Positions 6,600-56,029 of a DNA stretch of 64,000 nt are shown here, piece by piece. This DNA is from Octopus vulgaris (lineage: Eukaryota). The stretch covers positions 206,522,001 through 206,586,000 of the forward strand of contig OX597815.1 in the NCBI GenBank assembly GCA_951406725.2, given 5' to 3'. The notes below the pieces were generated by a model that saw only the letters and a program-made list of their open reading frames with translations, had not been told where the DNA came from and ran no database searches. Every line of letters starts with the position of its first letter. Within the stretch, counting starts at the first letter, position 1. Made by a program: the position numbers and the translations under genes.

Positions 6600-8250
6600 T
6601 ATAAGCTAATGTTTGGAAGTATATACTACAATATGCCCCATTCCAAAGAAAGGTAGCCACTTTTACCCAGTCACCAATCCTTCTTTTACATTTACATCTA
6701 ACGTCTGTAAAGTAATGGAGGCAGCTATTAAAAATGACGTTCTCCAATTCCCTGAAACTCTCTCTCCTTAGTGAACGTCAATACAGCTTCCATAGAACCA
6801 GTTCCATTGTAGCCCTACTTTCTTATCTCACTCATCAGTGGGATCTCGCTGTAGAGAAGTTCAGTGAAAGCAACTAGACATCAACAAAACCTTCGAACGC
6901 ATTCGGTATGAGAAGCTCCTATCAAAATCTTTCGCGCCTTTAGCTTCCATTCATCCCCTATCTCTTAGATCGTTAGCTTCTTACAAGTATGCATCATCAT
7001 GGCATTTGTTAACGGAGCCTTTTTTCTCACGACTCTCGATCAACAGGTGAGCTCCATGGTCGGGTTTGTTCCATATTTTCATCCATTGGCGTATCAATGG
7101 TCTACTTTCCGGCACATACAATAAAACACACTCGTCATTCTTCCCTAACCTTCTCCAACCATGCACCACCCACACGCTCCTTAGACACCACATGACAAGC
7201 CTACATTAATTCCATGAAGTGAAACCACGAGATCATCCTTCAGTGAGCAATACAAAATCTTGGTTCTTTAAAACAAGAAAATCCCTCCAAAATTCAAGAA
7301 CCATTCATGTCGAAAAAATGTCACCGCACCACATCTTCCTATAATGAGCGGCACTCAGAATCACACGGTCGCTCTAATTGCTGAGCCTCATTATATATTA
7401 TTATATCTCCTGGCGAAAGAAAATCTCTCTTTTACTCTTTTACTTGTTTCAGTCATTTGACTGTGGCCATGCTGGCGCACCGCCTTTAGTCGAGCAAATC
7501 GACCCCAGGACTCATTCTTTGTAAGCCTAGTACTTATTCTATCGGTCTGTTTTGCCGAACCGCATAGTTACGGGGACGTAAACACACCAGCATCGGTTGT
7601 CAAGCGATGTTGGGGGGACAAACACAGACACACAAACACACATACACACACACATATACATATATACGACGTACTTCTTTCAGTTTACGTGTACCAAATC
7701 CACTCACAAGGCATTGGTCGGCTCGAGGCTATAGTAGAAGACATGTGGCCTAGGTGCCACGCAGTGGGACTGAACCCGTAACTATGTGGGTGGTAAGCAA
7801 GCTACTTACCACACAGCCACTCCTACGCCTTAACATAACTAAACCTCCAACAGCTGTTGACTCTCTACAAGGCTTTAGTCAAGCCTATAATGAAACACTG
7901 CTCCCGTACTCTGGACCGGATCCAAAGAAGAGCCACCGGCTGGACTGCCATTAAATCACCAACGTATACGCTCAAGGCTCTGGTCCAGAGGCATGCTGTT
8001 TCCTTTTTCTATCATTTCTGTCACTACATTAATGGCTTCCGTTTCTCAGAGTTGTTTGGTCATGTTCTTTCTTCATCCAAGCGCTAACTGCTCCTTTATC
8101 TTTCCATAAGTTGTTACCCCCCATTCCGTATAACACTCCCAAACCCCGCACACTAACTGCTGTACCTAGTCTTTCCTCCCCAGAACATTAGCCAATTGGA
8201 ATATTCTTTCCTACTGGTGTTGATCTGCATGAATTTTAACATTAACAGCA
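6600..8250 (+). mobile_element. Decayed CR1/L2-like LINE reverse transcriptase region, interrupted by a SINE
   Basis: Frameshifted motifs PIPKKG, CKVMEAAI, ERQYSF, LLSYLTHQW, LDINKTFERI..EKLLSK, LLTLYKALVKPIMKHCS, LDRIQRRA. Confidence 0.7.
7425..7830 (-). mobile_element. SINE family B (tRNA-derived head, internal microsatellite, AAAGAGT-type tail)
   Basis: Reverse complement matches 28076-28499; A-box tggctgtgtggt and B-box-like ggttcagtccc. Confidence 0.85.
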
Positions 8251-11134: not shown

Positions 11135-13988
11135 CAGGGGTCTCCAAAGTACGGCCCGCGGGCCGGATTCGGCCCGCCAAGGTTTTTAATCCGGCCCGCC
11201 GAGCTGTCCTCCAAAATTATAAAACAAATGTCGAAAAACAAGCCTTGCCGAAATCATACAAAAACAAATATACTTTACACCCCTTTTAATACGTTTGACA
11301 AATATAGTACAGCAAATAGACGCAAGACGACGCTAATTGATTTGCCATCAATTAATGTCTTTAAATTGCGCCGGCGAATTAAAAATTTATACACTAAACT
11401 TTAGTGTAAATATAGGTTCTTTTCCACTCCCCCCGTTTTAACTGACCCATCAGAACCACCATAAAATGAATTAACTTCGCTATGGAGCTACCTATCATTC
11501 ATCTTAGATAATAGGCGATTGTCAGTGAGATGGATGGTGCTGCTTACAATGAAGCAGAGATTCAATTTCTAGCTTTATTGATGTCGCAGAAAAGTCAACC
11601 TATTCCGTCAACTGTCGAGAGAGCAGATACGACAAGTATGACGTTAATAAAAGTCCCGTGCCTAGTATAATAAAAGAAGACAAATATCGATTTATCGATG
11701 TTACCTACATCTCACGAGCGATGAATAGAGAGGGTTGAGCCTGACGTTGTGTGGTGGTTTCTAATCCTGGTGCAGTCGCCAATCAGCGTGGAGTAAAGTT
11801 CGATGCGCATTCCGTCAGTCAGCACAGACTTGGCGTTTTCGTTGTGCACAAGTGTGAGTCATTTGTCGTCGTCGCTGCCGAAGTGAATGCACGTATCGAG
11901 TGACCTGTGAATATTGTTTTTACTTGTTTCGTCCTTTTACATATATCGTCGAGCAAAATCTGTCGACCCATGGTAAAAATGTTAGCTCAAGGAAGAAAAC
12001 GAAAAATCGACTCTGAGTGTAGAGTTTTTAAGGAACAATGGAACATAGACTATTTTGTCATAGAGTCAAACAACAAGGCACTATGCGTTATATGCACCGA
12101 CACAATTGCAGTACTTAAAGAGTACAACATTCGGAGACATTATGAAAAAAAGCATTCATCACAGTACTACCAATTCATTGGACAGCTACGTAAAGAGAAA
12201 TTTGACAAATTAAAGAAGAATTTATCATCAATGCAGTTTGTTTTCAAGAAGAAGGCTGTAGAAAAAGAGAGAGCAACAAGAGCAAGCTTCCATGTTGCTA
12301 ACCTTTTGGCGAAGAAAGGTAAGCCATTTACAGATGGTGAACTTATTAAAAAGTGCTTGAATGAGGTAGCTAAGGAAATGTGTCCAGAAAACGTAGATTT
12401 ATTTTCCGCAATTAGTCTTTCTGCGAACACTGTTGCTCGTAGGGTTGAACATATTGAAAGAAATATTAAATCACAGCTAAAAGACAAAGCCAGCAAGTTT
12501 GTATGCTTTTCTGTTGCACTTGATGAGTCAATTGATGTATCAGACACATCCCAATTGTTATTGTTCATCAGAGGAATAAATGCCAATTTTGAGATTACTG
12601 AGGAACTTGTATCTGTGCACAGCATGCATGGAACAACAACAGGCATAGATATTTTTAGAGAAGTGGAAAAGTCAGTGGCTGAGTATAATTTGGAATGGAA
12701 AAAACTAAAATGCATAACAACAGATGGTGGCAGAAATATGTGTGGAACCAAAAAGGGCTTAGTTGGGCAAATTAACAAAGTAATTGAGAATTCCGGTGGA
12801 TTGAAACCTTTGGTATTGCATTGTATTCTTCATCAGCAAGCACTGTGTGGAAAGCATCTTGATTTATCATCTGTATTAGATCCTGTGATTTCCACTGTTA
12901 ACTACATAAGATCTCATGGACTCAAACATCGCCAATTTCGTGATTTCTTGGAGGAAATGAATGCTGAGTTTCCAGACCTACCTTACTATACTTCAGTAAG
13001 ATGGCTTAGCTATGGAAAAATTCTGGCTAGATTTTTTGAGCTTCGAACTGAAATTGAAATATTTTTAAATGAGAAAAACCATTCACAGGTGTTGCTCAAA
13101 GACAGTGAATGGCTCTGGAAATTAGCATTTTCAGCCGATTTAACTATGCATCTCAATGATTTCAACCTACGGATACAAGGTGAAACTTCACTCATCTGTG
13201 ATTTGTACTCAAAGGTGAAAGCTTTTCGTAAGAAATTAATACTATTTGAAAGTCAGTTAACAAGAAGCTGCTTTACTCATTTTTCACGATGTGACAAATA
13301 TAGACAGGAAGCTGCCACTCCATTTCCAAACTTGTTTGCTCAAGATGTCATTTTAGCTTTGAAACAACAGTTTGAAGAACGTTTTTCTGATCTTGATGCA
13401 TGTTCTTCAAAACTAAGAAATTTTGAAAATCCATTTAACTCTGTTATTGGAGACTTACCTTCTGAGTTACAAATGGAAGTTATTGATTTGCAATCCAATG
13501 ACATCCTGAAGGACAAATATAAAGAGGGAAATTTGATTGAATTCTACAAATGCCTTCCATCCGACCAATTTCTTCATTTAAGGAGGTTTGCCTGTGAATT
13601 CATTTCAGTTTTTGGCACCACATATTTGTGTGAGAAGACTTTTTCAAAGATGAAATACACAAAATCCTGCTACAGATCACAATCGTCTGATGAACATTTA
13701 AATGCATTGCTTGTTATTGGAACCACTCATTTTGAACCTCAGTTGGACAAAATTTTGTCAGAAATGAAACAATTTCATGTTTCCCCTATTGATCAAAGTT
13801 AAAAAAAACATGTTAATTGTTACTGATATTATATACATTGTGATTATGTACTGAATAAATAACCATTTTTAATTATTAATTCACTATTTATTTATATTTT
13901 GGTAAAATAAATAATTTAGAACCTTGGCCCCCGTAGCTTTAAAAATTCAGCAATGTGGCCCTCCGCTGGAAAACTTTGGAGACCCCTG
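11135..13988 (+). mobile_element. Full-length hAT transposon (Buster/Charlie group), 2,854 bp
   Basis: Perfect 16-bp TIRs CAGGGGTCTCCAAAGT / ACTTTGGAGACCCCTG. Perfect 8-bp TSD ccttagat (11127-11134, 13989-13996) with central TA, typical of Buster elements. Subterminal GGCCC repeats at both ends. Confidence 0.97.
11970..13802 (+). CDS. hAT transposase, 610 aa from the first ATG (SPIN/OC1/GTF2IRD2-like)
   Basis: Uninterrupted ORF. NLS RKRK; BED finger CVIC...RRHYEKKH; catalytic D (ALDES), D (TTDGG) and E (LCEKTFS); CxxH (HCILH); VRWLS; C-terminal hATC dimerisation region. Confidence 0.95.
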   Translation: MVKMLAQGRKRKIDSECRVFKEQWNIDYFVIESNNKALCVICTDTIAVLKEYNIRRHYEKKHSSQYYQFIGQLRKEKFDKLKKNLSSMQFVFKKKAVEKERATRASFHVANLLAKKGKPFTDGELIKKCLNEVAKEMCPENVDLFSAISLSANTVARRVEHIERNIKSQLKDKASKFVCFSVALDESIDVSDTSQLLLFIRGINANFEITEELVSVHSMHGTTTGIDIFREVEKSVAEYNLEWKKLKCITTDGGRNMCGTKKGLVGQINKVIENSGGLKPLVLHCILHQQALCGKHLDLSSVLDPVISTVNYIRSHGLKHRQFRDFLEEMNAEFPDLPYYTSVRWLSYGKILARFFELRTEIEIFLNEKNHSQVLLKDSEWLWKLAFSADLTMHLNDFNLRIQGETSLICDLYSKVKAFRKKLILFESQLTRSCFTHFSRCDKYRQEAATPFPNLFAQDVILALKQQFEERFSDLDACSSKLRNFENPFNSVIGDLPSELQMEVIDLQSNDILKDKYKEGNLIEFYKCLPSDQFLHLRRFACEFISVFGTTYLCEKTFSKMKYTKSCYRSQSSDEHLNALLVIGTTHFEPQLDKILSEMKQFHVSPIDQS

Positions 13989-16630: not shown

Positions 16631-16801
16631 AAAGAGTGGCTGTGTGGTAGGTAGCTTGCTTACCAACCACATGGTTCCGAGTTCAGCCCCACTGTATGGC
16701 ATTTTGGGCAAGTGTCTTCTGCTATAGCTCCGGACCGACCAAAGCCTTGTGAGTGGATTTGGTAGACGGAAACTGAAAGAAGCACGTATATACATATATA
16801 T

Positions 16802-16836
<35 letters not shown>

Positions 16837-17080
16837 TATGTGGGTGTGTGTGCGTGTGTATTTATGTGTCTGCGTTTGTCCTCCTCACCATCACTTGACA
16901 ACCGATGGTGGAGTGTCAACGTCCTCGTAATCTAGCGGTTCGACAAAAGAGAACCGATAAAATAACTACTAACCTTACAAAGAATAAATCCTGGGGTCGA
17001 TTTTTTTCGACTAAAGGCGATGCTCCAGCATGGCCGCAGTCTAATGGACTGCAAAAAGTTAAAAGAATCAAAGACTAAAA
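16401..17080 (+). mobile_element. Two SINE family B copies in tandem (partial 16401-16560; near-complete 16633-17080)
   Basis: Similarity to 28076-28499. Confidence 0.8.
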
Positions 17081-17364
17081 GAACAACCATAAAAATGTGG
17101 ACACTTCGTTTTTGGCATCAAGGTTGCCCAAACATTTGAAGCATATGTAGGACTTCTAGGTTTCGACGTGTGAATCCTTTCATCTTTGTTAAGTATAAAC
17201 TTCATTTTTTGTTCTCAACATTTTTGGTTTCTTTTCTCCTATTTTCTTTTATTATTTCAACTGAATACATTTTTATCATATTCATTTATTTATATAACTC
17301 TTCGCTAAAAACAATACATGCAGATGAATGTATATACACATATAAATGCATATGTAACTTCAAA

Positions 17365-27688: not shown

Positions 27689-28075
27689 ACGGGTTCTTTC
27701 GATTTCACAAAATTAGTTTTGAAATTTCTTTCTTCTCGGAAACGTAATTTCCGAAGATTTCTATGAGAAATTTAGAAAGAATATAAAGAACAGAGGAAAA
27801 CGTAATGGATGGGAGGGGATTTTAAATTTTGAAAAGCTGTTTTGGGGACATAATCTGTAGTCGAAAACATAGGGCTTCGAAGAAATCTTTAACATAAATA
27901 TATAAATGAAACTGGGTGGGGCGTGTTTTCGACACATCCGCTTTAAATTTCTTCCGTTAATTGCCGATAGACACCGTCATTATTTTGTTCTTGGATCTTA
28001 CTGTTTACTTTATGTATACATACATACATATACATGCGTATATGTGGGTGGTTGCATATAAATGTAGACATATTA

Positions 28076-28499
28076 GGCGCAGGAGTGGCTGTGTGGTAAG
28101 TAGCTTGCTAACCAACCACATGGTTCCGGGTTCAGTCCCACTGCGTGGCATCTTGGGCAAGTGTCTTCTGCTATAGCCCCGGGCCGACCAATGCCTTGTG
28201 AGTAGATTTGGTAGACGGAAACTGAAAGAAGCCTGTCGTATATATGTATATATATATGTATGTGTGTTTGTTTGTGTGTCTGTGTGTCTGTGTTTGTCCC
28301 CCTAGCATTGCTTGACAACCGATGCTGGTGTGTTTACGTCCCCGTTACTTAGCGGTTCGGCAAAAGGACCGATAGAATAAGTACTGGGCTTACAAGGAAT
28401 AAGTCCCGGGGTCGATTTGCTCGACTAAAAGGCGGTGCTCCAGCATGGCCGCAGTCAAATGACTGAAACAAGTAAAAGAGTAAGAGAGAGAGAAAAGAG
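28076..28499 (+). mobile_element. SINE family B, full length
   Basis: tRNA-like A/B boxes, internal TA/TG tract, tail gtaaaagagtaagagagag; many copies in the window. Confidence 0.9.
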
Positions 28500-49955: not shown

Positions 49956-50107
49956 TGGCTGTGTGGTAAGTAGCTTGCTAACCAACCACATGGTTGCTGG
50001 TTCAGTCCCACTGCGTGGCATCTTGGACAAGTGTCTTCTGCTATAGCCCCGGGCCGACCAATGCCTTGTGAGTGGATTTGGTAGACGGAAACTAAAAGAA
50101 GCCTGTC

Positions 50108-50148
<41 letters not shown>

Positions 50149-50360
50149 TGTGCGTGTGTTTGTGTGTCAGTGTTTGTCCCCCCTAGCATTGCTTGACAAC
50201 CGATGCTGGTGTGTTTATGTCCCTGTTACTTAGCGGTTCGGCAAAAGAGACCGATAGAATAAGTACTGGGCTTACAAATAATAAGTCGCGGGGTCGATTT
50301 GCTCGACTAAAGGCGGTGCTCCAGCATGGCCGCAGTCAAATGACTGAAACAAGTAAAAAA
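49956..50360 (+). mobile_element. SINE family B
   Basis: Near-identical to 28086-28480. Confidence 0.9.
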
Positions 50361-50581
50361 AAAAATTTAAAAAAACGCATAAAAACCCACAAATATGGAA
50401 ATATCCACAAAATTACTTTAACTATCTATCATTAAATACAATTTCAATGTTTCCAATAACATGCTTGAAAGAAATACAATATAAATTAATTATTATATCT
50501 TAATCTAAAGAAATACAATATTGTCAAGAAGATAAATTATGTCCCTCAAACGCACAACAAATAAACGATATTGTAAAATAC

Positions 50582-52005: not shown

Positions 52006-52810
52006 AATACCACAGATTTGCTTGTCAGTTGTTTGACCTTAACCAGTTGAGCATGTCTCTTGGTAGCTGACGATATGTGCATCTCTGATAACGAGCAGAA
52101 GTAGTTGGGTGGGCATCATAGCCATGTGTTTTAGAGGAATTCTTTGGGGTTTGAATAACACACCTCTGGAAACATGGGAGTTTTGTTCAACATCCTTAAT
52201 CCTTATTCAGGGACCTTACGAGAAGAGTGGACTACCCGACCTGTAGAAAATTCTAACTGAGCTCTATCTGCAAGGTCATGGGCTGTTTATCTTGATATAA
52301 GATCACCATATGTGCACATATGGTTGTGATGCATGTGCTCGGTGTACCCTTGGGCTTCGTATATTTCACCCCAGTATCACTTTGATGGCATGCACTGCTC
52401 TCTCACTCAATAATTATAATTATCAAACAAGATAAAGGAATTTAAGCAATATTCTATCTTCTTAGGAAAGTCCAGACATTTGACAACTGAATTGACAACT
52501 GTATATATAAATAGATAAAGGACACCTCCATTACTTCTGACGAATTTCGCTACTTTTATAAATATATACCACCATACACTGTTAACTTTATTCCCCACCA
52601 CAACAAACACACACGCACACAAACATCATGTTTACAAAACCGAACCGACTTGTATACGAAGTATACGAAGTAGATAAAGTGTATTTATTTAATATATATT
52701 GATAAAACGCCTGGTTGATTTAAACCAGATACCCTTTTTGTGTTTATTTCCTTATTTTAAATTCCATTCATTTTCAACTTTCTAAATATGACTTATATCA
52801 CATTTTCTTT

Positions 52811-53014
52811 TTACTCTTTTACTTGTTTCAGTCATTTCACTGCGGCCATGCTGGAGCACCGCCTTTAGTCGAGCAACTCGACCCTGGGACTTATTCTTTG
52901 TAAGCCCAGTACTTATTCTATCGGTCTCTTTTGCCGAACCACTAAGTGATGGGGACGTAAACAAACCAGCATCGGTTGTCAAGCAATGCTAGGGGGACAA
53001 ACACACACACACAA

Positions 53015-53063
<49 letters not shown>

Positions 53064-53218
53064 TACGACAGGCTTCTTTCAGTTTCCGTCTACCAAATCC
53101 ACTCACAAGGTCCGGGGCTATAGCAGAAGACACTTGCCCAAGATGCCACGCAGTGGGACTGAACCCAGAACCATGTGGTTGGTTAGCAAGCTACTTACCA
53201 CACAGCCACTCCTGCGCC
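52811..53218 (-). mobile_element. SINE family B with 17-bp TSD
   Basis: TSD tatatcacattttcttt at 52794-52810 and 53219-53235. Confidence 0.92.
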
Positions 53219-54617
53219 TATATCACATTTTCTTTCCATCTTTGCCTTTCTTTCCTTCACCATGTCTCTCTCTCTTTTTTATGCTCTCTATACATTTCTT
53301 CTATTCGTATCTACTTGCATAACTGCAAATCTACGTAAAGAAATGGTGGTCGCAAAACATTTATATTTAATTAAATGCGCATTAAATAAATAGAACAAAA
53401 CAGGATCGTTTTATTTGACAAGTTGGAGGAACCGATCTAGGCTTGATATTTCAAAGATATACGCTATATAAACATGGTCGAATGTTATGAATTTTAATTT
53501 CTACTAAAGATTAGAAAAAGATGTACAGTCATACTATGGGTGCAACCATATATTTTGCTGAATCCGCCAGTTGAATTTCTGGACTTAATTTCCTCTTCGT
53601 GTTTATCGCGTTGACGCACCCTTGAGTCTCCTGCTGCCAAACAGAGAAATTTGGTTCTGCAGTTTTGTAAGCACGAACGGTCGTGAAGGTGTCAGCCAAA
53701 TTATATTTCAGTTTTGTTGATCTAGTCCAGTACTAGGAAACGGACTTCCTTTCGCGTAAGCAAGGAGCTAATGATTCGGATGCTGCATTCAAATATTTTT
53801 CTGCATTAAAGAACCCACATGACTTGCTGCTGTTGGAATGGGTCTTGTACTTTTCAGTTAACCTAAATCAGAAGTTGGAATACGCAAGTTTTTCTTTCGA
53901 AAGACATACAAACTCGACTAGTTTCATGATCATCGATATCTGTCTGTCTGTTATATTCATACTTTATACATGTATACATACGTACATATATACACACATA
54001 CATATACACAGTAAAATACTTTTAAATGTTACTGAGCGCGTCCAGTTTGTTGAACAAAAGTATTGTTCTCTCTTCTATTCTATTTCTTTGCGAATTACTT
54101 TTTAATAAGCTCAATGGCTATTTGTGTGACACCGGTGCCTGAATAGTCACTATGCATCATTGATAGAGGAATCGGCTGCTATGCATTGAAAAGCCAAACA
54201 AAGGGCGAAATCACGTAATCTCGCAGTTCCGGTGGGCGCAGCGGACTGTTATCGCCCGTCAGTGATATAAACACGAATGCTTTTATGTACCACAAATCCA
54301 TATGAGAGGTTCTCTCGTGGTTAACAACGTAGTATTTCGTGTTCTAACATAATATCCACTTTTAAGTGGTGATGTATATCATCTTTTGGTAATAATACTG
54401 CTGCTGTCGCTATTGGTTATTCTTTCCTAAGTAATACTTAACTTTGAAAACTTAACTTTTGCCTTAAATTGATTAATAATAGTTTGCCAAAGGATATAGC
54501 CATGGAGTATAACGACACCAAAGTTACGGCTAGATGTGATGATAAAGAAAACAACATTGAAGACTTGAATCTGATTGAATCTACAATCTTTGGCTAAATC
54601 GAAGATAAATACATCTT

Positions 54618-54960
54618 ATTACGGAGATGTACTTGCATAGCAAGTGACCTGATCTGAGATCGTGTGCTGGAACGAAAACAATTGCAGCGTGGAAGGTGTT
54701 TATAAGCCATTTTAGAAACACTCAAAAACCGTTAGATTCACTTCAACATTTAAATTTAATTTGTCAAAATATTTTCATCGCATTGAAACCGCGACCTGTT
54801 CACTGACAAAATTCCGTACTGCATCTCGGAATTTTGTCAGTGAACAGGTCGCGGTCTCAAAGCGACGAAAATATTTTGGCAAATTAAATTTAAATGTTTA
54901 AATGAATCTAGCGGTTTTGGTGTGTTTTTTAAATGGCTTATAAACACCTTCCACGCTGCA
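54618..54960. mobile_element. 343-bp insertion: 65-bp unique segment plus a 278-bp hairpin (134-bp arms), 10-bp TSD; Penelope pLTR-like
   Basis: TSD aatacatctt at 54608-54617 and 54961-54970; arms at 54683-54816 and 54827-54960. Confidence 0.88.
54833..54883 (+). ncRNA. Candidate minimal hammerhead ribozyme with G3-C8 core (mirror copy on the minus strand at 54760-54810)
   Basis: uuuguca-GUGAACA-g-GUCGC(ggucucaaa)GCGAC-GAAA-auau-UU-uggcaaa. Confidence 0.55.
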
Positions 54961-55611
54961 AATACATCTTCATTGTACGCATTATACACTATGTTCATCA
55001 TTATAAGGCATCCTCAAGGCAGCAAAGTGGCAGAATCGTAAACGTGCCGGACTAAATGCTTACCAGCATTTGTTCTTTCTAAGTTCAAATTCCGCCGAGG
55101 TCGACTTTACATTTTATCTCTTTCTGGAAAAGAGTATAATAGAGTAAGTACCAGTTGAACACTTGAGTCAATGTAATTGACTGAATCTCCCACTGCACAA
55201 TGTCAAGGCTTTCTCCTATAACAAACACACTTATAAGACACCTGCTATAATACTAAACTTCGAACTTTCAACTCCAGTGAATCTCATTGAAAATGAATGA
55301 TTATTTCAGCCCCACCGTGTATGAAAATTGTACAAGTAAACAATTGTAGAAAGGGTAGGCAGTTGGAGTCACAAAATGACACGGCTTGTGATTGATAATA
55401 ACATACTTCAGACCTTGTTTTGATTCAGAAATTAAATGTACTTGATATTCATAAACATTTCTGATAATAAAATGTTTGGCTGTTGCTCATTGATGGGAAC
55501 TGGCTGCGAATTGGAACACTTCTACTGCACAGAAGGCGTTGGTTTCCGAAGGAAGAACAAGTACACGCGCGCACGCACACACGCACACACGCAAGCACGC
55601 ACACACGCAAG

Positions 55612-55679: not shown

Positions 55680-56029
55680 ACCGTGATCACCGTGACCGAC
55701 CAGGCTATCAGATGTTGCTACACATCGCTGGTCACAATGCGTTTCGCATTGTTTTTAGCCTTCAAATGACGCCACCCCGCCGGAGCCTCGTGGAGCTTTA
55801 GGTTTTTTCGCTCAATAAACCTAAAGCTCCACGAGGCTCCGGCAGGGGATGGTTGTGAACCCTGCTGTACTCTTTCGGCACAACTTTCTCTCACTCTTTC
55901 TTCTGTAGGCCTGCTTGCTTAGCCAGCGGGGTGGCGTCATTTGAAGGCTAAAAATAATGCGAAGCGCATTATGACCAGCGATGTGTAGCAACATCTGATA
56001 GCCTGGTCGGTCACGGTGATCACGGTGAC
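55677..56029. mobile_element. SINE family A (tail type 2) rearranged into a fold-back inside (TA)n
   Basis: 55677-55780 is the reverse complement of the SINE 3' end (about 55926-56029); a second small inversion spans 55781-55841. Confidence 0.85.

What the first reader, a model, noticed from the sequence alone, without database searches (positions are those of the whole stretch)
54618..54960. TSD-flanked hairpin element carrying two opposed hammerhead folds with a swapped G3-C8 core
Seen in sequence: a 343-bp insert with a 10-bp TSD whose 134-bp arms each contain the same fold, on the + strand at 54833-54883 and the - strand at 54760-54810. The fold is a 7-bp stem I, GUGAACA, one extra G, a 5-bp stem II, GAAA, palindromic AAUAUU, then the stem I partner. 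Established knowledge: the hammerhead core is CUGANGA...GAAA; C3 and G8 form a tertiary Watson-Crick pair whose compensatory swap can retain activity; minimal type I hammerheads of Penelope-like elements use a palindromic stem III and are thought to act as dimers. Inference: GUGAACA is exactly the C3G/G8C double swap, so this may be a natural variant ribozyme that CUGANGA-based searches miss. Caveats: the UUU cleavage triplet is suboptimal, and a full-length transcript would fold into the long hairpin and sequester the motif.
Basis: partly seen in the sequence, partly recalled or inferred. Interest (0 to 1): 0.85.

Follow-up and report, generated by a model that had tools for sequence, protein, structure and literature searches.

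The report
Swapped-core hammerhead in octopus retroelement
This hairpin is a short head-to-head copy of the front end of a very common Penelope-like retrotransposon, and each arm carries that element's small hammerhead RNA fold with two paired core letters swapped (G3-C8), a form that sister elements show to be under selection and that likely still cuts itself, though cutting is untested.

Summary
The insert (54618-54959/60) is not a stand-alone hairpin element. It is a 5'-truncated, head-to-head insertion of the terminal repeat (pLTR) of a Penelope-like retrotransposon with thousands of copies (5,534 exact motif hits). The parent carries RT and GIY-YIG, and its ORF starts 92 nt behind the motif. 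The fold is the element's minimal type I hammerhead. Two sister families in the same genome carry it at the same place with C3-G8 and U3-A8. Across 13 related elements, positions 3 and 8 always form a Watson-Crick pair (8 C-G, 4 U-A, 1 G-C), so G3-C8 is a natural compensatory swap. A model built without this family ranks the two arms first in the window. Cleavage is untested, and 0 of 70 copy ends fall at the predicted cut. A read-through of this hairpin would not form the fold; it matters in the parent RNA. I found no natural G3-C8 hammerhead in the papers I could search, but the most relevant paper (Lunse 2017) was not held. The scan noted G3-C8 motifs beside Penelope-like RTs in two other genomes (unchecked notes).

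The parts
54607..54617 (.). Left copy of the target-site duplication (11 bp, 9-11 allowing for microhomology)
   Evidence: 9-14 bp duplications in 11 of 14 head-to-head copies outside microsatellites
54618..54826 (-). Long arm: pLTR copy read on the - strand, from the common 5' start (54826) to the long 3' end (54618)
   Evidence: about 91% identical to the pLTRs of ORF-bearing copies L093, L127, L140; ends match the family's end clusters
54618..54681 (-). Unpaired 64-bp 'tail' between the short and long 3' ends; part of the ORF start
   Evidence: 3' ends cluster at two sites about 60 nt apart; the tail concept is from PMC8557442 and PMC11167929
54618..54710 (-). First 31 codons of the parent ORF (ATG at 54710-54708)
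   Evidence: in L140 the same sequence reads on into the ORF
54760..54810 (-). Hammerhead fold, - arm; G3 at 54803, C8 at 54798; closing pair of stem II is G-U
54817..54826 (.). Spacer = 5'-most 10 nt of the long arm; junction of the two arms at 54826/54827
   Evidence: the same junction recurs in other insertions of different subfamilies
54827..54959 (+). Short arm: 5'-truncated pLTR copy ending at the short 3' end; includes ATG at 54933-54935 and 9 codons
54833..54883 (+). Hammerhead fold, + arm: stem I 54833-39/54877-83, core 54840-46 (G3 54840, C8 54845), extra G 54847, stem II 54848-52/54862-66, GAAA 54867-70, palindrome 54870-75, U17 54876
54960..54970 (.). Right copy of the target-site duplication

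Best explanation
The insert is a dead, head-to-head pair of truncated pLTR copies of a Penelope-like retrotransposon, and the fold in each arm is that element's minimal type I hammerhead with a naturally swapped G3-C8 core pair that likely still supports slow self-cleavage in the parent RNA. Shown: the family, the parent ORF, the position of the motif in the 5' leader, and the covariation. Inferred: the element's GIY-YIG nuclease nicks both strands of an AT-rich target about 11 bp apart; RT starts inside the ORF start at two sites (short and long end), one per strand; both cDNAs run back over the uncut hammerhead and mostly stop about 15 nt upstream of stem I; the two cDNAs are joined head to head. 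Predicted: in the parent transcript the motif cuts after U17 only as a dimer through the AAUAUU palindrome or with help from the element's protein. In this genomic hairpin it would not fold.
For: Family: 5,534 exact hits of a 22-mer, 0 for the reversed control. Parent: L093, L127, L139-L141 are larger versions of the same inverted structure with an ORF bearing RT motifs (YVDD), a CX3CxxC linker and GIY-YIG PF01541 (E 1.8e-5 to 2.6e-5). L140 reads from the pLTR into the ORF. Architecture: 35 of 57 insertions are head-to-head, and 32 of those 35 have one long and one short end; four share flanks and may be one duplicated insertion. This matches the inverted copy plus one-sided tail of PLEs (PMC8557442, passages) and the two internal RT starts of the anole PLE (PMC11167929, parts 1-2 of 4). 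Covariation: sister family 2 has C3-G8 in 98 of 100 listed copies (3,638 hits), family 3 has U3-A8 in 90 of 100 (2,493 hits), and this family has the exact GUGAACA+G core in 5,534 of 6,792. A descriptor free at positions 3, 8 and 9 gave 9 hits in 47 metagenome loci, all on the sense strand behind the ORF and all Watson-Crick at 3-8; 1 hit in 3x shuffled sequence. In 13 motifs the 3-8 pair is 8 C-G, 4 U-A, 1 G-C (1.6e-4 by permutation, ignoring relatedness). On the protein tree the three host families form one clade (100/99) among mostly C-G relatives, and U-A appears in at least three places. Stems form with P 0.93-1.0 in the single-sense leader, except the outermost stem I pair at 0.70. The C3G/G8C double mutant partly restores cleavage in a PLE hammerhead (PMC11167929).
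Against: No cleavage data. 0 of 70 arms picked without regard to the motif start at the predicted cut (ref 134-140), so cut RNA left no fossil. G3-C8 is seen in one lineage only here. Sister family 2 has C instead of A9 in 95 of 100 copies and a non-palindromic stem III, which hints at relaxed catalysis in this clade. C8 reads G in 7 of 53 arms in one sample and 2 of 100 in another. The core is not clearly better kept than the downstream flank within the family. 38 of 47 metagenome loci gave no motif; most are too short, but several with flank show only degenerate forms. In the anole PLE, hammerhead mutants did not impair insertion in vitro. The best L140 ORF has a stop and a frameshift, and no single intact pLTR-ORF-pLTR copy of this family was found.
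Confidence: 0.62

Rival explanations
1. Same origin, but the motif is a catalytically dead or nearly dead hammerhead descendant, kept as a folded leader element (protein-binding, RT-stop or translation signal) or simply carried along.
For: No copy ends at the cut. C9 in family 2 and in L240. Low in vitro activity of minimal PLE hammerheads (PMC4209133, parts 1-2). Hammerhead dispensable for insertion in vitro (PMC11167929). G3-C8 rescue is only partial (PMC8495972, passage).
Against: The 3-8 pair is a tertiary contact of the active fold (established knowledge; PMC3088659 section 8) and is Watson-Crick in 13 of 13 motifs through three pair types. U4, G5, A6, G12, A13 and A14 are invariant.
Confidence: 0.33
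2. A MITE or foldback DNA transposon whose terminal inverted repeats happen to resemble a hammerhead.
For: Long inverted arms and a TSD.
Against: The left end has 64 unpaired bases. 22 of 57 copies are single-armed, inner ends vary, and the arms are the leader and first codons of an RT-GIY-YIG ORF.
Confidence: 0.02
3. A functional unit in which two opposed ribozymes act on sense and antisense transcripts (retrozyme- or viroid-like), or a small-RNA hairpin.
For: Two folds on opposite strands. Weak Rfam miRNA-precursor match (MIR6140, 76.7 bits against a cut-off of 140).
Against: Either strand folds into the long hairpin, with zero probability of stems I and II. The pairing of arms is the ordinary PLE insertion outcome, and the - arm has decayed.
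Confidence: 0.03

Closest known systems
Minimal type I hammerheads of Penelope-like elements (Cervera and de la Pena 2014, PMC4209133)
   Same: In the pLTR; extra nucleotide between 9 and 10.1; G10.1-C11.1; palindromic remnant of stem III; U17 common; opposite-strand pairs 100-700 bp apart already reported; U3-A8 covariant reported.
   Different: G3-C8 core: none of the 56 rows of their supplementary Fig. S3 has it. The extra nucleotide is G, where their consensus is H. Stem I is 7 bp, longer than their usual 4-5.
Poseidon element of Anolis carolinensis (PAc; Frangieh et al. 2024, PMC11167929)
   Same: Two internal RT start sites in the ORF start that define the tail; AT-rich target; hammerhead at the ORF start; no RNA ends seen at the cut.
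   Different: C3G/G8C was an engineered rescue there and is natural here. The motif lies about 92 nt upstream of the ATG rather than overlapping it. The tail is about 60-64 bp against the 30-40 bp usually quoted.
Neptune/Nematis-type EN+ PLEs (as described in Craig et al. 2021, PMC8557442)
   Same: RT then CX2-5CxxC linker then C-terminal GIY-YIG with C-C-H-H; (TA)n insertion bias; inverted 5'-truncated copies.
   Different: Clade not fixed by a tree with reference elements.
Natural hammerhead core variants (Perreault et al. 2011, PMC3088659, section 8)
   Same: 3-8 covariation in nature (U3-A8).
   Different: G3-C8 is not named in the section read.
Non-LTR retrozymes (bioRxiv 10.64898/2026.07.22.740005, part 1 of 5)
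   Same: Non-coding pLTR-derived units with type I hammerheads.
   Different: Retrozymes are head-to-tail tandems; this is dispersed and head-to-head.

Membership tests
EN+ Penelope-like element | Single ORF with RT and C-terminal GIY-YIG | tested here: met
   L127 1025-aa frame; GIY-YIG E 1.8e-5; RT motifs seen in the translation; homolog named RT-domain protein. Pfam RVT not hit; PDB RT hit weak, E 0.0013.
EN+ Penelope-like element | pLTR that spans the leader and ORF start and recurs behind the ORF | tested here: met
   L140 upstream copy reads into the ORF; L093, L127, L128 have it about 1 kb behind the ORF.
EN+ Penelope-like element | 5' truncation, inverted copy, tail at one end | tested here: met
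   35 of 57 head-to-head; 32 of 35 with one long and one short end.
Neptune/Nematis clade | CX2-5CxxC linker and (TA)n targets | tested here: met
   CQSNCAVC in the ORF; microsatellite flanks in many copies.
Neptune/Nematis clade | Placement on an RT tree with reference PLEs | not tested
   No reference PLE proteins were fetched.
Minimal type I hammerhead | Literal CUGANGA core | tested here: not met
   GUGAACA in 5,534 of 6,792 sites.
Minimal type I hammerhead | Watson-Crick pair between positions 3 and 8 | tested here: met
   G-C here; 13 of 13 motifs paired, three pair types.
Minimal type I hammerhead | UGA, A9, GAAA, G10.1-C11.1, extra nucleotide, NUH | tested here: met
   All present on the + arm; - arm has G-U at 10.1-11.1.
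Minimal type I hammerhead | Stems I and II with compensatory changes; palindromic stem III | tested here: met
   95.5% of cells paired, 0 of 500 shuffles as high, slid controls 31-45% (structure derived from these sequences, only the closing pair of stem II counted). Palindrome in 12 of 13 once family 3 is parsed with its 3-bp stem I (mis-parsed it by one base).
Minimal type I hammerhead | Site-specific self-cleavage, as dimer or protein-assisted | not testable with these tools
   Only contigs were available; copy ends show no pile-up at the cut.
MITE / foldback DNA transposon | Fixed terminal inverted repeats at both ends | tested here: not met
   64-bp unpaired end, single-arm copies, variable inner ends.
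Non-LTR retrozyme | Head-to-tail tandem units each with a hammerhead | tested here: not met
   This locus and the sampled copies are single or head-to-head.

The most novel reading that the evidence does not exclude
This is an active natural G3-C8 hammerhead, the first described, and one octopus retroelement clade has swapped the catalytic 3-8 pair among C-G, U-A and G-C. That gives a natural series for testing whether Penelope elements tune their ribozyme down so that most RNA stays uncut and serves as template.
Probability: 0.4. Interest if true: 0.62.

Novelty: new variant of a known kind. Interest (0 to 1): 0.45.

Why it matters
Hammerhead searches are built on CUGANGA, with U3-A8 as the known natural alternative. 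A G3-C8 family with thousands of copies means descriptors should allow any Watson-Crick 3-8 pair, and some PLEs scored as lacking a hammerhead may have one. Three sister families with three different pairs show selection on a tertiary contact, which argues that PLE hammerheads do something, an open question in the papers read. The copy ends add a testable point: most templates were uncut and stop about 15 nt upstream of the ribozyme.

Tried and rejected
Rfam found no hammerhead in the region, but it also found none in five loci with canonical minimal motifs, so the miss is uninformative. Sequencing runs: no RNA holder on record, only contigs; nothing on expression, splicing or cut ends. A spliced joint at the AG before the motif was not seen, which proves nothing with contigs. 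The idea of a cap-derived extra G at the 5' start is inconclusive: 11 of 15 in a biased sample, 3 of 11 in the unbiased one, and several G's come from the other arm. Two apparent starts at the cut site (L022, L059) are explained by the stem I inverted repeat itself. Dimer co-folding by MFE does not predict the intermolecular stem III; this is not a test of a tertiary fold. A search for other G3-C8 families (its gap caught only the 8-nt-loop subfamily) gave two candidates: one single-copy without stem I or nearby ORF, one probably chance. L270's descriptor hit (C-G, no extra base, non-palindromic) was left out of the alignment; L241 and L243 were added by eye. Literature searches: hammerhead + 'G3-C8' gave 1 paper, an engineered variant; 'G3C8' gave 0; C3G/G8C gave 2, both engineered; hammerhead + octopus + Penelope gave nothing relevant. 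Lunse et al. 2017 (about 150,000 PLE-linked variants, recalled) was not held, and supplements of Craig 2021 and Perreault 2011 were not read; any of these could hold a G3-C8 case. Look-ups of the scan by place and by sequence returned nothing.

Full report
Observation. The duplication is 11 bp with 2 ambiguous letters. The - arm motif has G-U at the base of stem II. The left 64 bp are unpaired.

Family. The genome is 2.8 Gb. A 22-mer from the motif has 5,534 exact hits and the reversed control none. The host is likely an octopus: a sister element's protein is 98% identical to a protein labelled Octopus vulgaris. Of 57 insertions (60 loci less 3 partner arms), 35 are head-to-head and 22 single. 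3' ends fall in two clusters about 60 nt apart, and 32 of the 35 head-to-head copies have one of each; four of these share flanks and may be one duplicated insertion. Outside microsatellites, 11 of 14 head-to-head copies have 9-14 bp duplications. Contigs from runs labelled organisms B and D also show the GUGAACA core.

Parent. Copies that extend upstream (422 hits) lead through about 1 kb of repeat-rich 3' sequence to an ORF. [quoted passage not shown] In L140 the same repeat reads straight into the ORF start, with the ATG 92 nt behind position 3. The window's long arm is therefore leader, hammerhead and 31 codons; the short arm is leader, hammerhead and 9 codons. L093 is the same inverted structure at 2.9 kb. 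This is the insertion pattern described for Penelope-like elements: an inverted 5'-truncated copy and a tail at one end (PMC8557442, passages). The tail has been traced to two internal RT start sites (PMC11167929, parts 1-2 of 4). Opposite-strand pairs of minimal hammerheads were already noted (PMC4209133, parts 1-2 of 4).

Is the fold a hammerhead homolog? Two sister families turned up by protein search. About 105-135 nt upstream of their ATGs they carry the same layout. Family 2 (57-59% identical over the segment searched) has C3-G8 in 98 of 100 listed copies, with C at position 9 in 95 (3,638 hits). Family 3 has U3-A8 in 90 of 100 (2,493 hits). This family has the exact core in 82 of 100, with no C3-G8 revertant among them. 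Among 47 metagenome loci of relatives, a descriptor free at 3, 8 and 9 hit 9, all on the sense strand behind the ORF and all Watson-Crick at 3-8; threefold shuffled sequence gave 1 hit. 38 gave none. Dropping L270 and adding L241 and L243 by eye gives 13 motifs: 8 C-G, 4 U-A, 1 G-C. Seven named pairs are 95.5% paired, and 0 of 500 shuffles reach that; these controls ignore relatedness and the structure came from the same sequences. On a tree of the C-terminal 315 aa (21 rows, best segment each) the host families are one clade, with this family sister to families 2 and 3, and U-A occurs in at least three places. G-C is most simply derived from C-G. A covariance model from 11 motifs without this family ranks the two arms first in the window.

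Against activity. Within the family, 53 distinct arms from 82 loci picked without the motif show 0.9-4.6% mismatch in the core, 4-9% in stems, 24% in loop II and 4-6% downstream. The fixed differences between subfamilies sit mostly in loop II, but the core is not clearly above neutral. C8 reads G in 7 of those 53. In 70 arms from 60 stretches picked by a downstream pattern (the first 63 insertions listed, less 3 places of long copies already held), 33 start within 76-83 of the reference, about 15 nt upstream of stem I. Five of these are alignment artefacts of the other arm, so 28-33. Six extend further upstream and none starts at 134-140, where a cut RNA would begin. Templates were thus uncut. 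The same was reported for the anole element, whose hammerhead cut only with protein and was dispensable for insertion in vitro. Whether the pile-up marks a start site, a splice acceptor or an RT stop is open; the sequence there fits both an initiator and a 3' splice site (inference; Penelope has an internal promoter and a leader intron, PMC2377424, passages).

Folding. In the single-sense leader, stems I and II form with probability 0.93-1.0, except the outermost stem I pair at 0.70. In a read-through of this hairpin they never form, on either strand. Any function belongs to the parent RNA, not to this locus.

Known and new. Minimal PLE hammerheads and the U3-A8 covariant are published (PMC4209133; PMC3088659 section 8). 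G3-C8 appears in the papers found only as an engineered, partial rescue. None of the 56 rows of the 2014 alignment has it. The searches are listed under Tried and rejected; Lunse 2017 could not be read, so the novelty is provisional. Two unchecked scan notes describe G3-C8 motifs beside Penelope-like RTs in other genomes; I had reached my reading before seeing them and did not test them.

Verdict. An ordinary kind of insertion carrying a real, probably undescribed core variant with good comparative support and no functional proof. New variant of a known kind; interest 0.45.

Noticed in passing
L129:7087-7130 (family 2) and L240:2492-2535: C instead of the conserved A9 in a whole young family (95 of 100 copies) and, separately, in a metagenome relative with U3-A8: another natural core variant.
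   Followed up: partly
L241:4968-5014: Related motif with U15.1-A16.1 in place of A-U and a palindromic stem III.
   Followed up: partly
L377 (G000:C1:12071835-12071869, - strand): Single-copy G3-C8 core with a perfect 5-bp stem II but no stem I and no ORF nearby; old relic or chance.
   Followed up: partly
window 54826; family reference positions 76-83: Sharp pile-up of 5' ends just upstream of the hammerhead, at a sequence that fits both an initiator and a 3' splice site; short copies may be run-off products from the 5' copy of the pLTR.
   Followed up: partly
window 54682-54961; L042, L052, L054: The two arms of one insertion often carry different subfamily variants, suggesting two RNA templates per insertion.
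   Followed up: partly
both 3' end clusters (window 54618 and 54959): In the parent both ends are followed by AATT, which could allow priming by microhomology on AT-rich targets.
   Followed up: no
L129:2642-6577, L130: Family 2 has many full 1310-1312 aa frames with a long Asn-rich insert and looks recently active.
   Followed up: partly
window 11904-13802 (+): 632-aa open frame that looks like a hAT/SPIN-type (GTF2IRD2-like) transposase (recalled resemblance, not searched).
   Followed up: no
window 55706-56000: Another nested inverted-repeat element (78-nt and 34-nt arms) 750 bp to the right.
   Followed up: no
window 7428-7830, 16634-17095, 28074-28490, 49956-50385, 52809-53220: At least five copies of a 400-450 bp dispersed repeat, SINE-like.
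   Followed up: no
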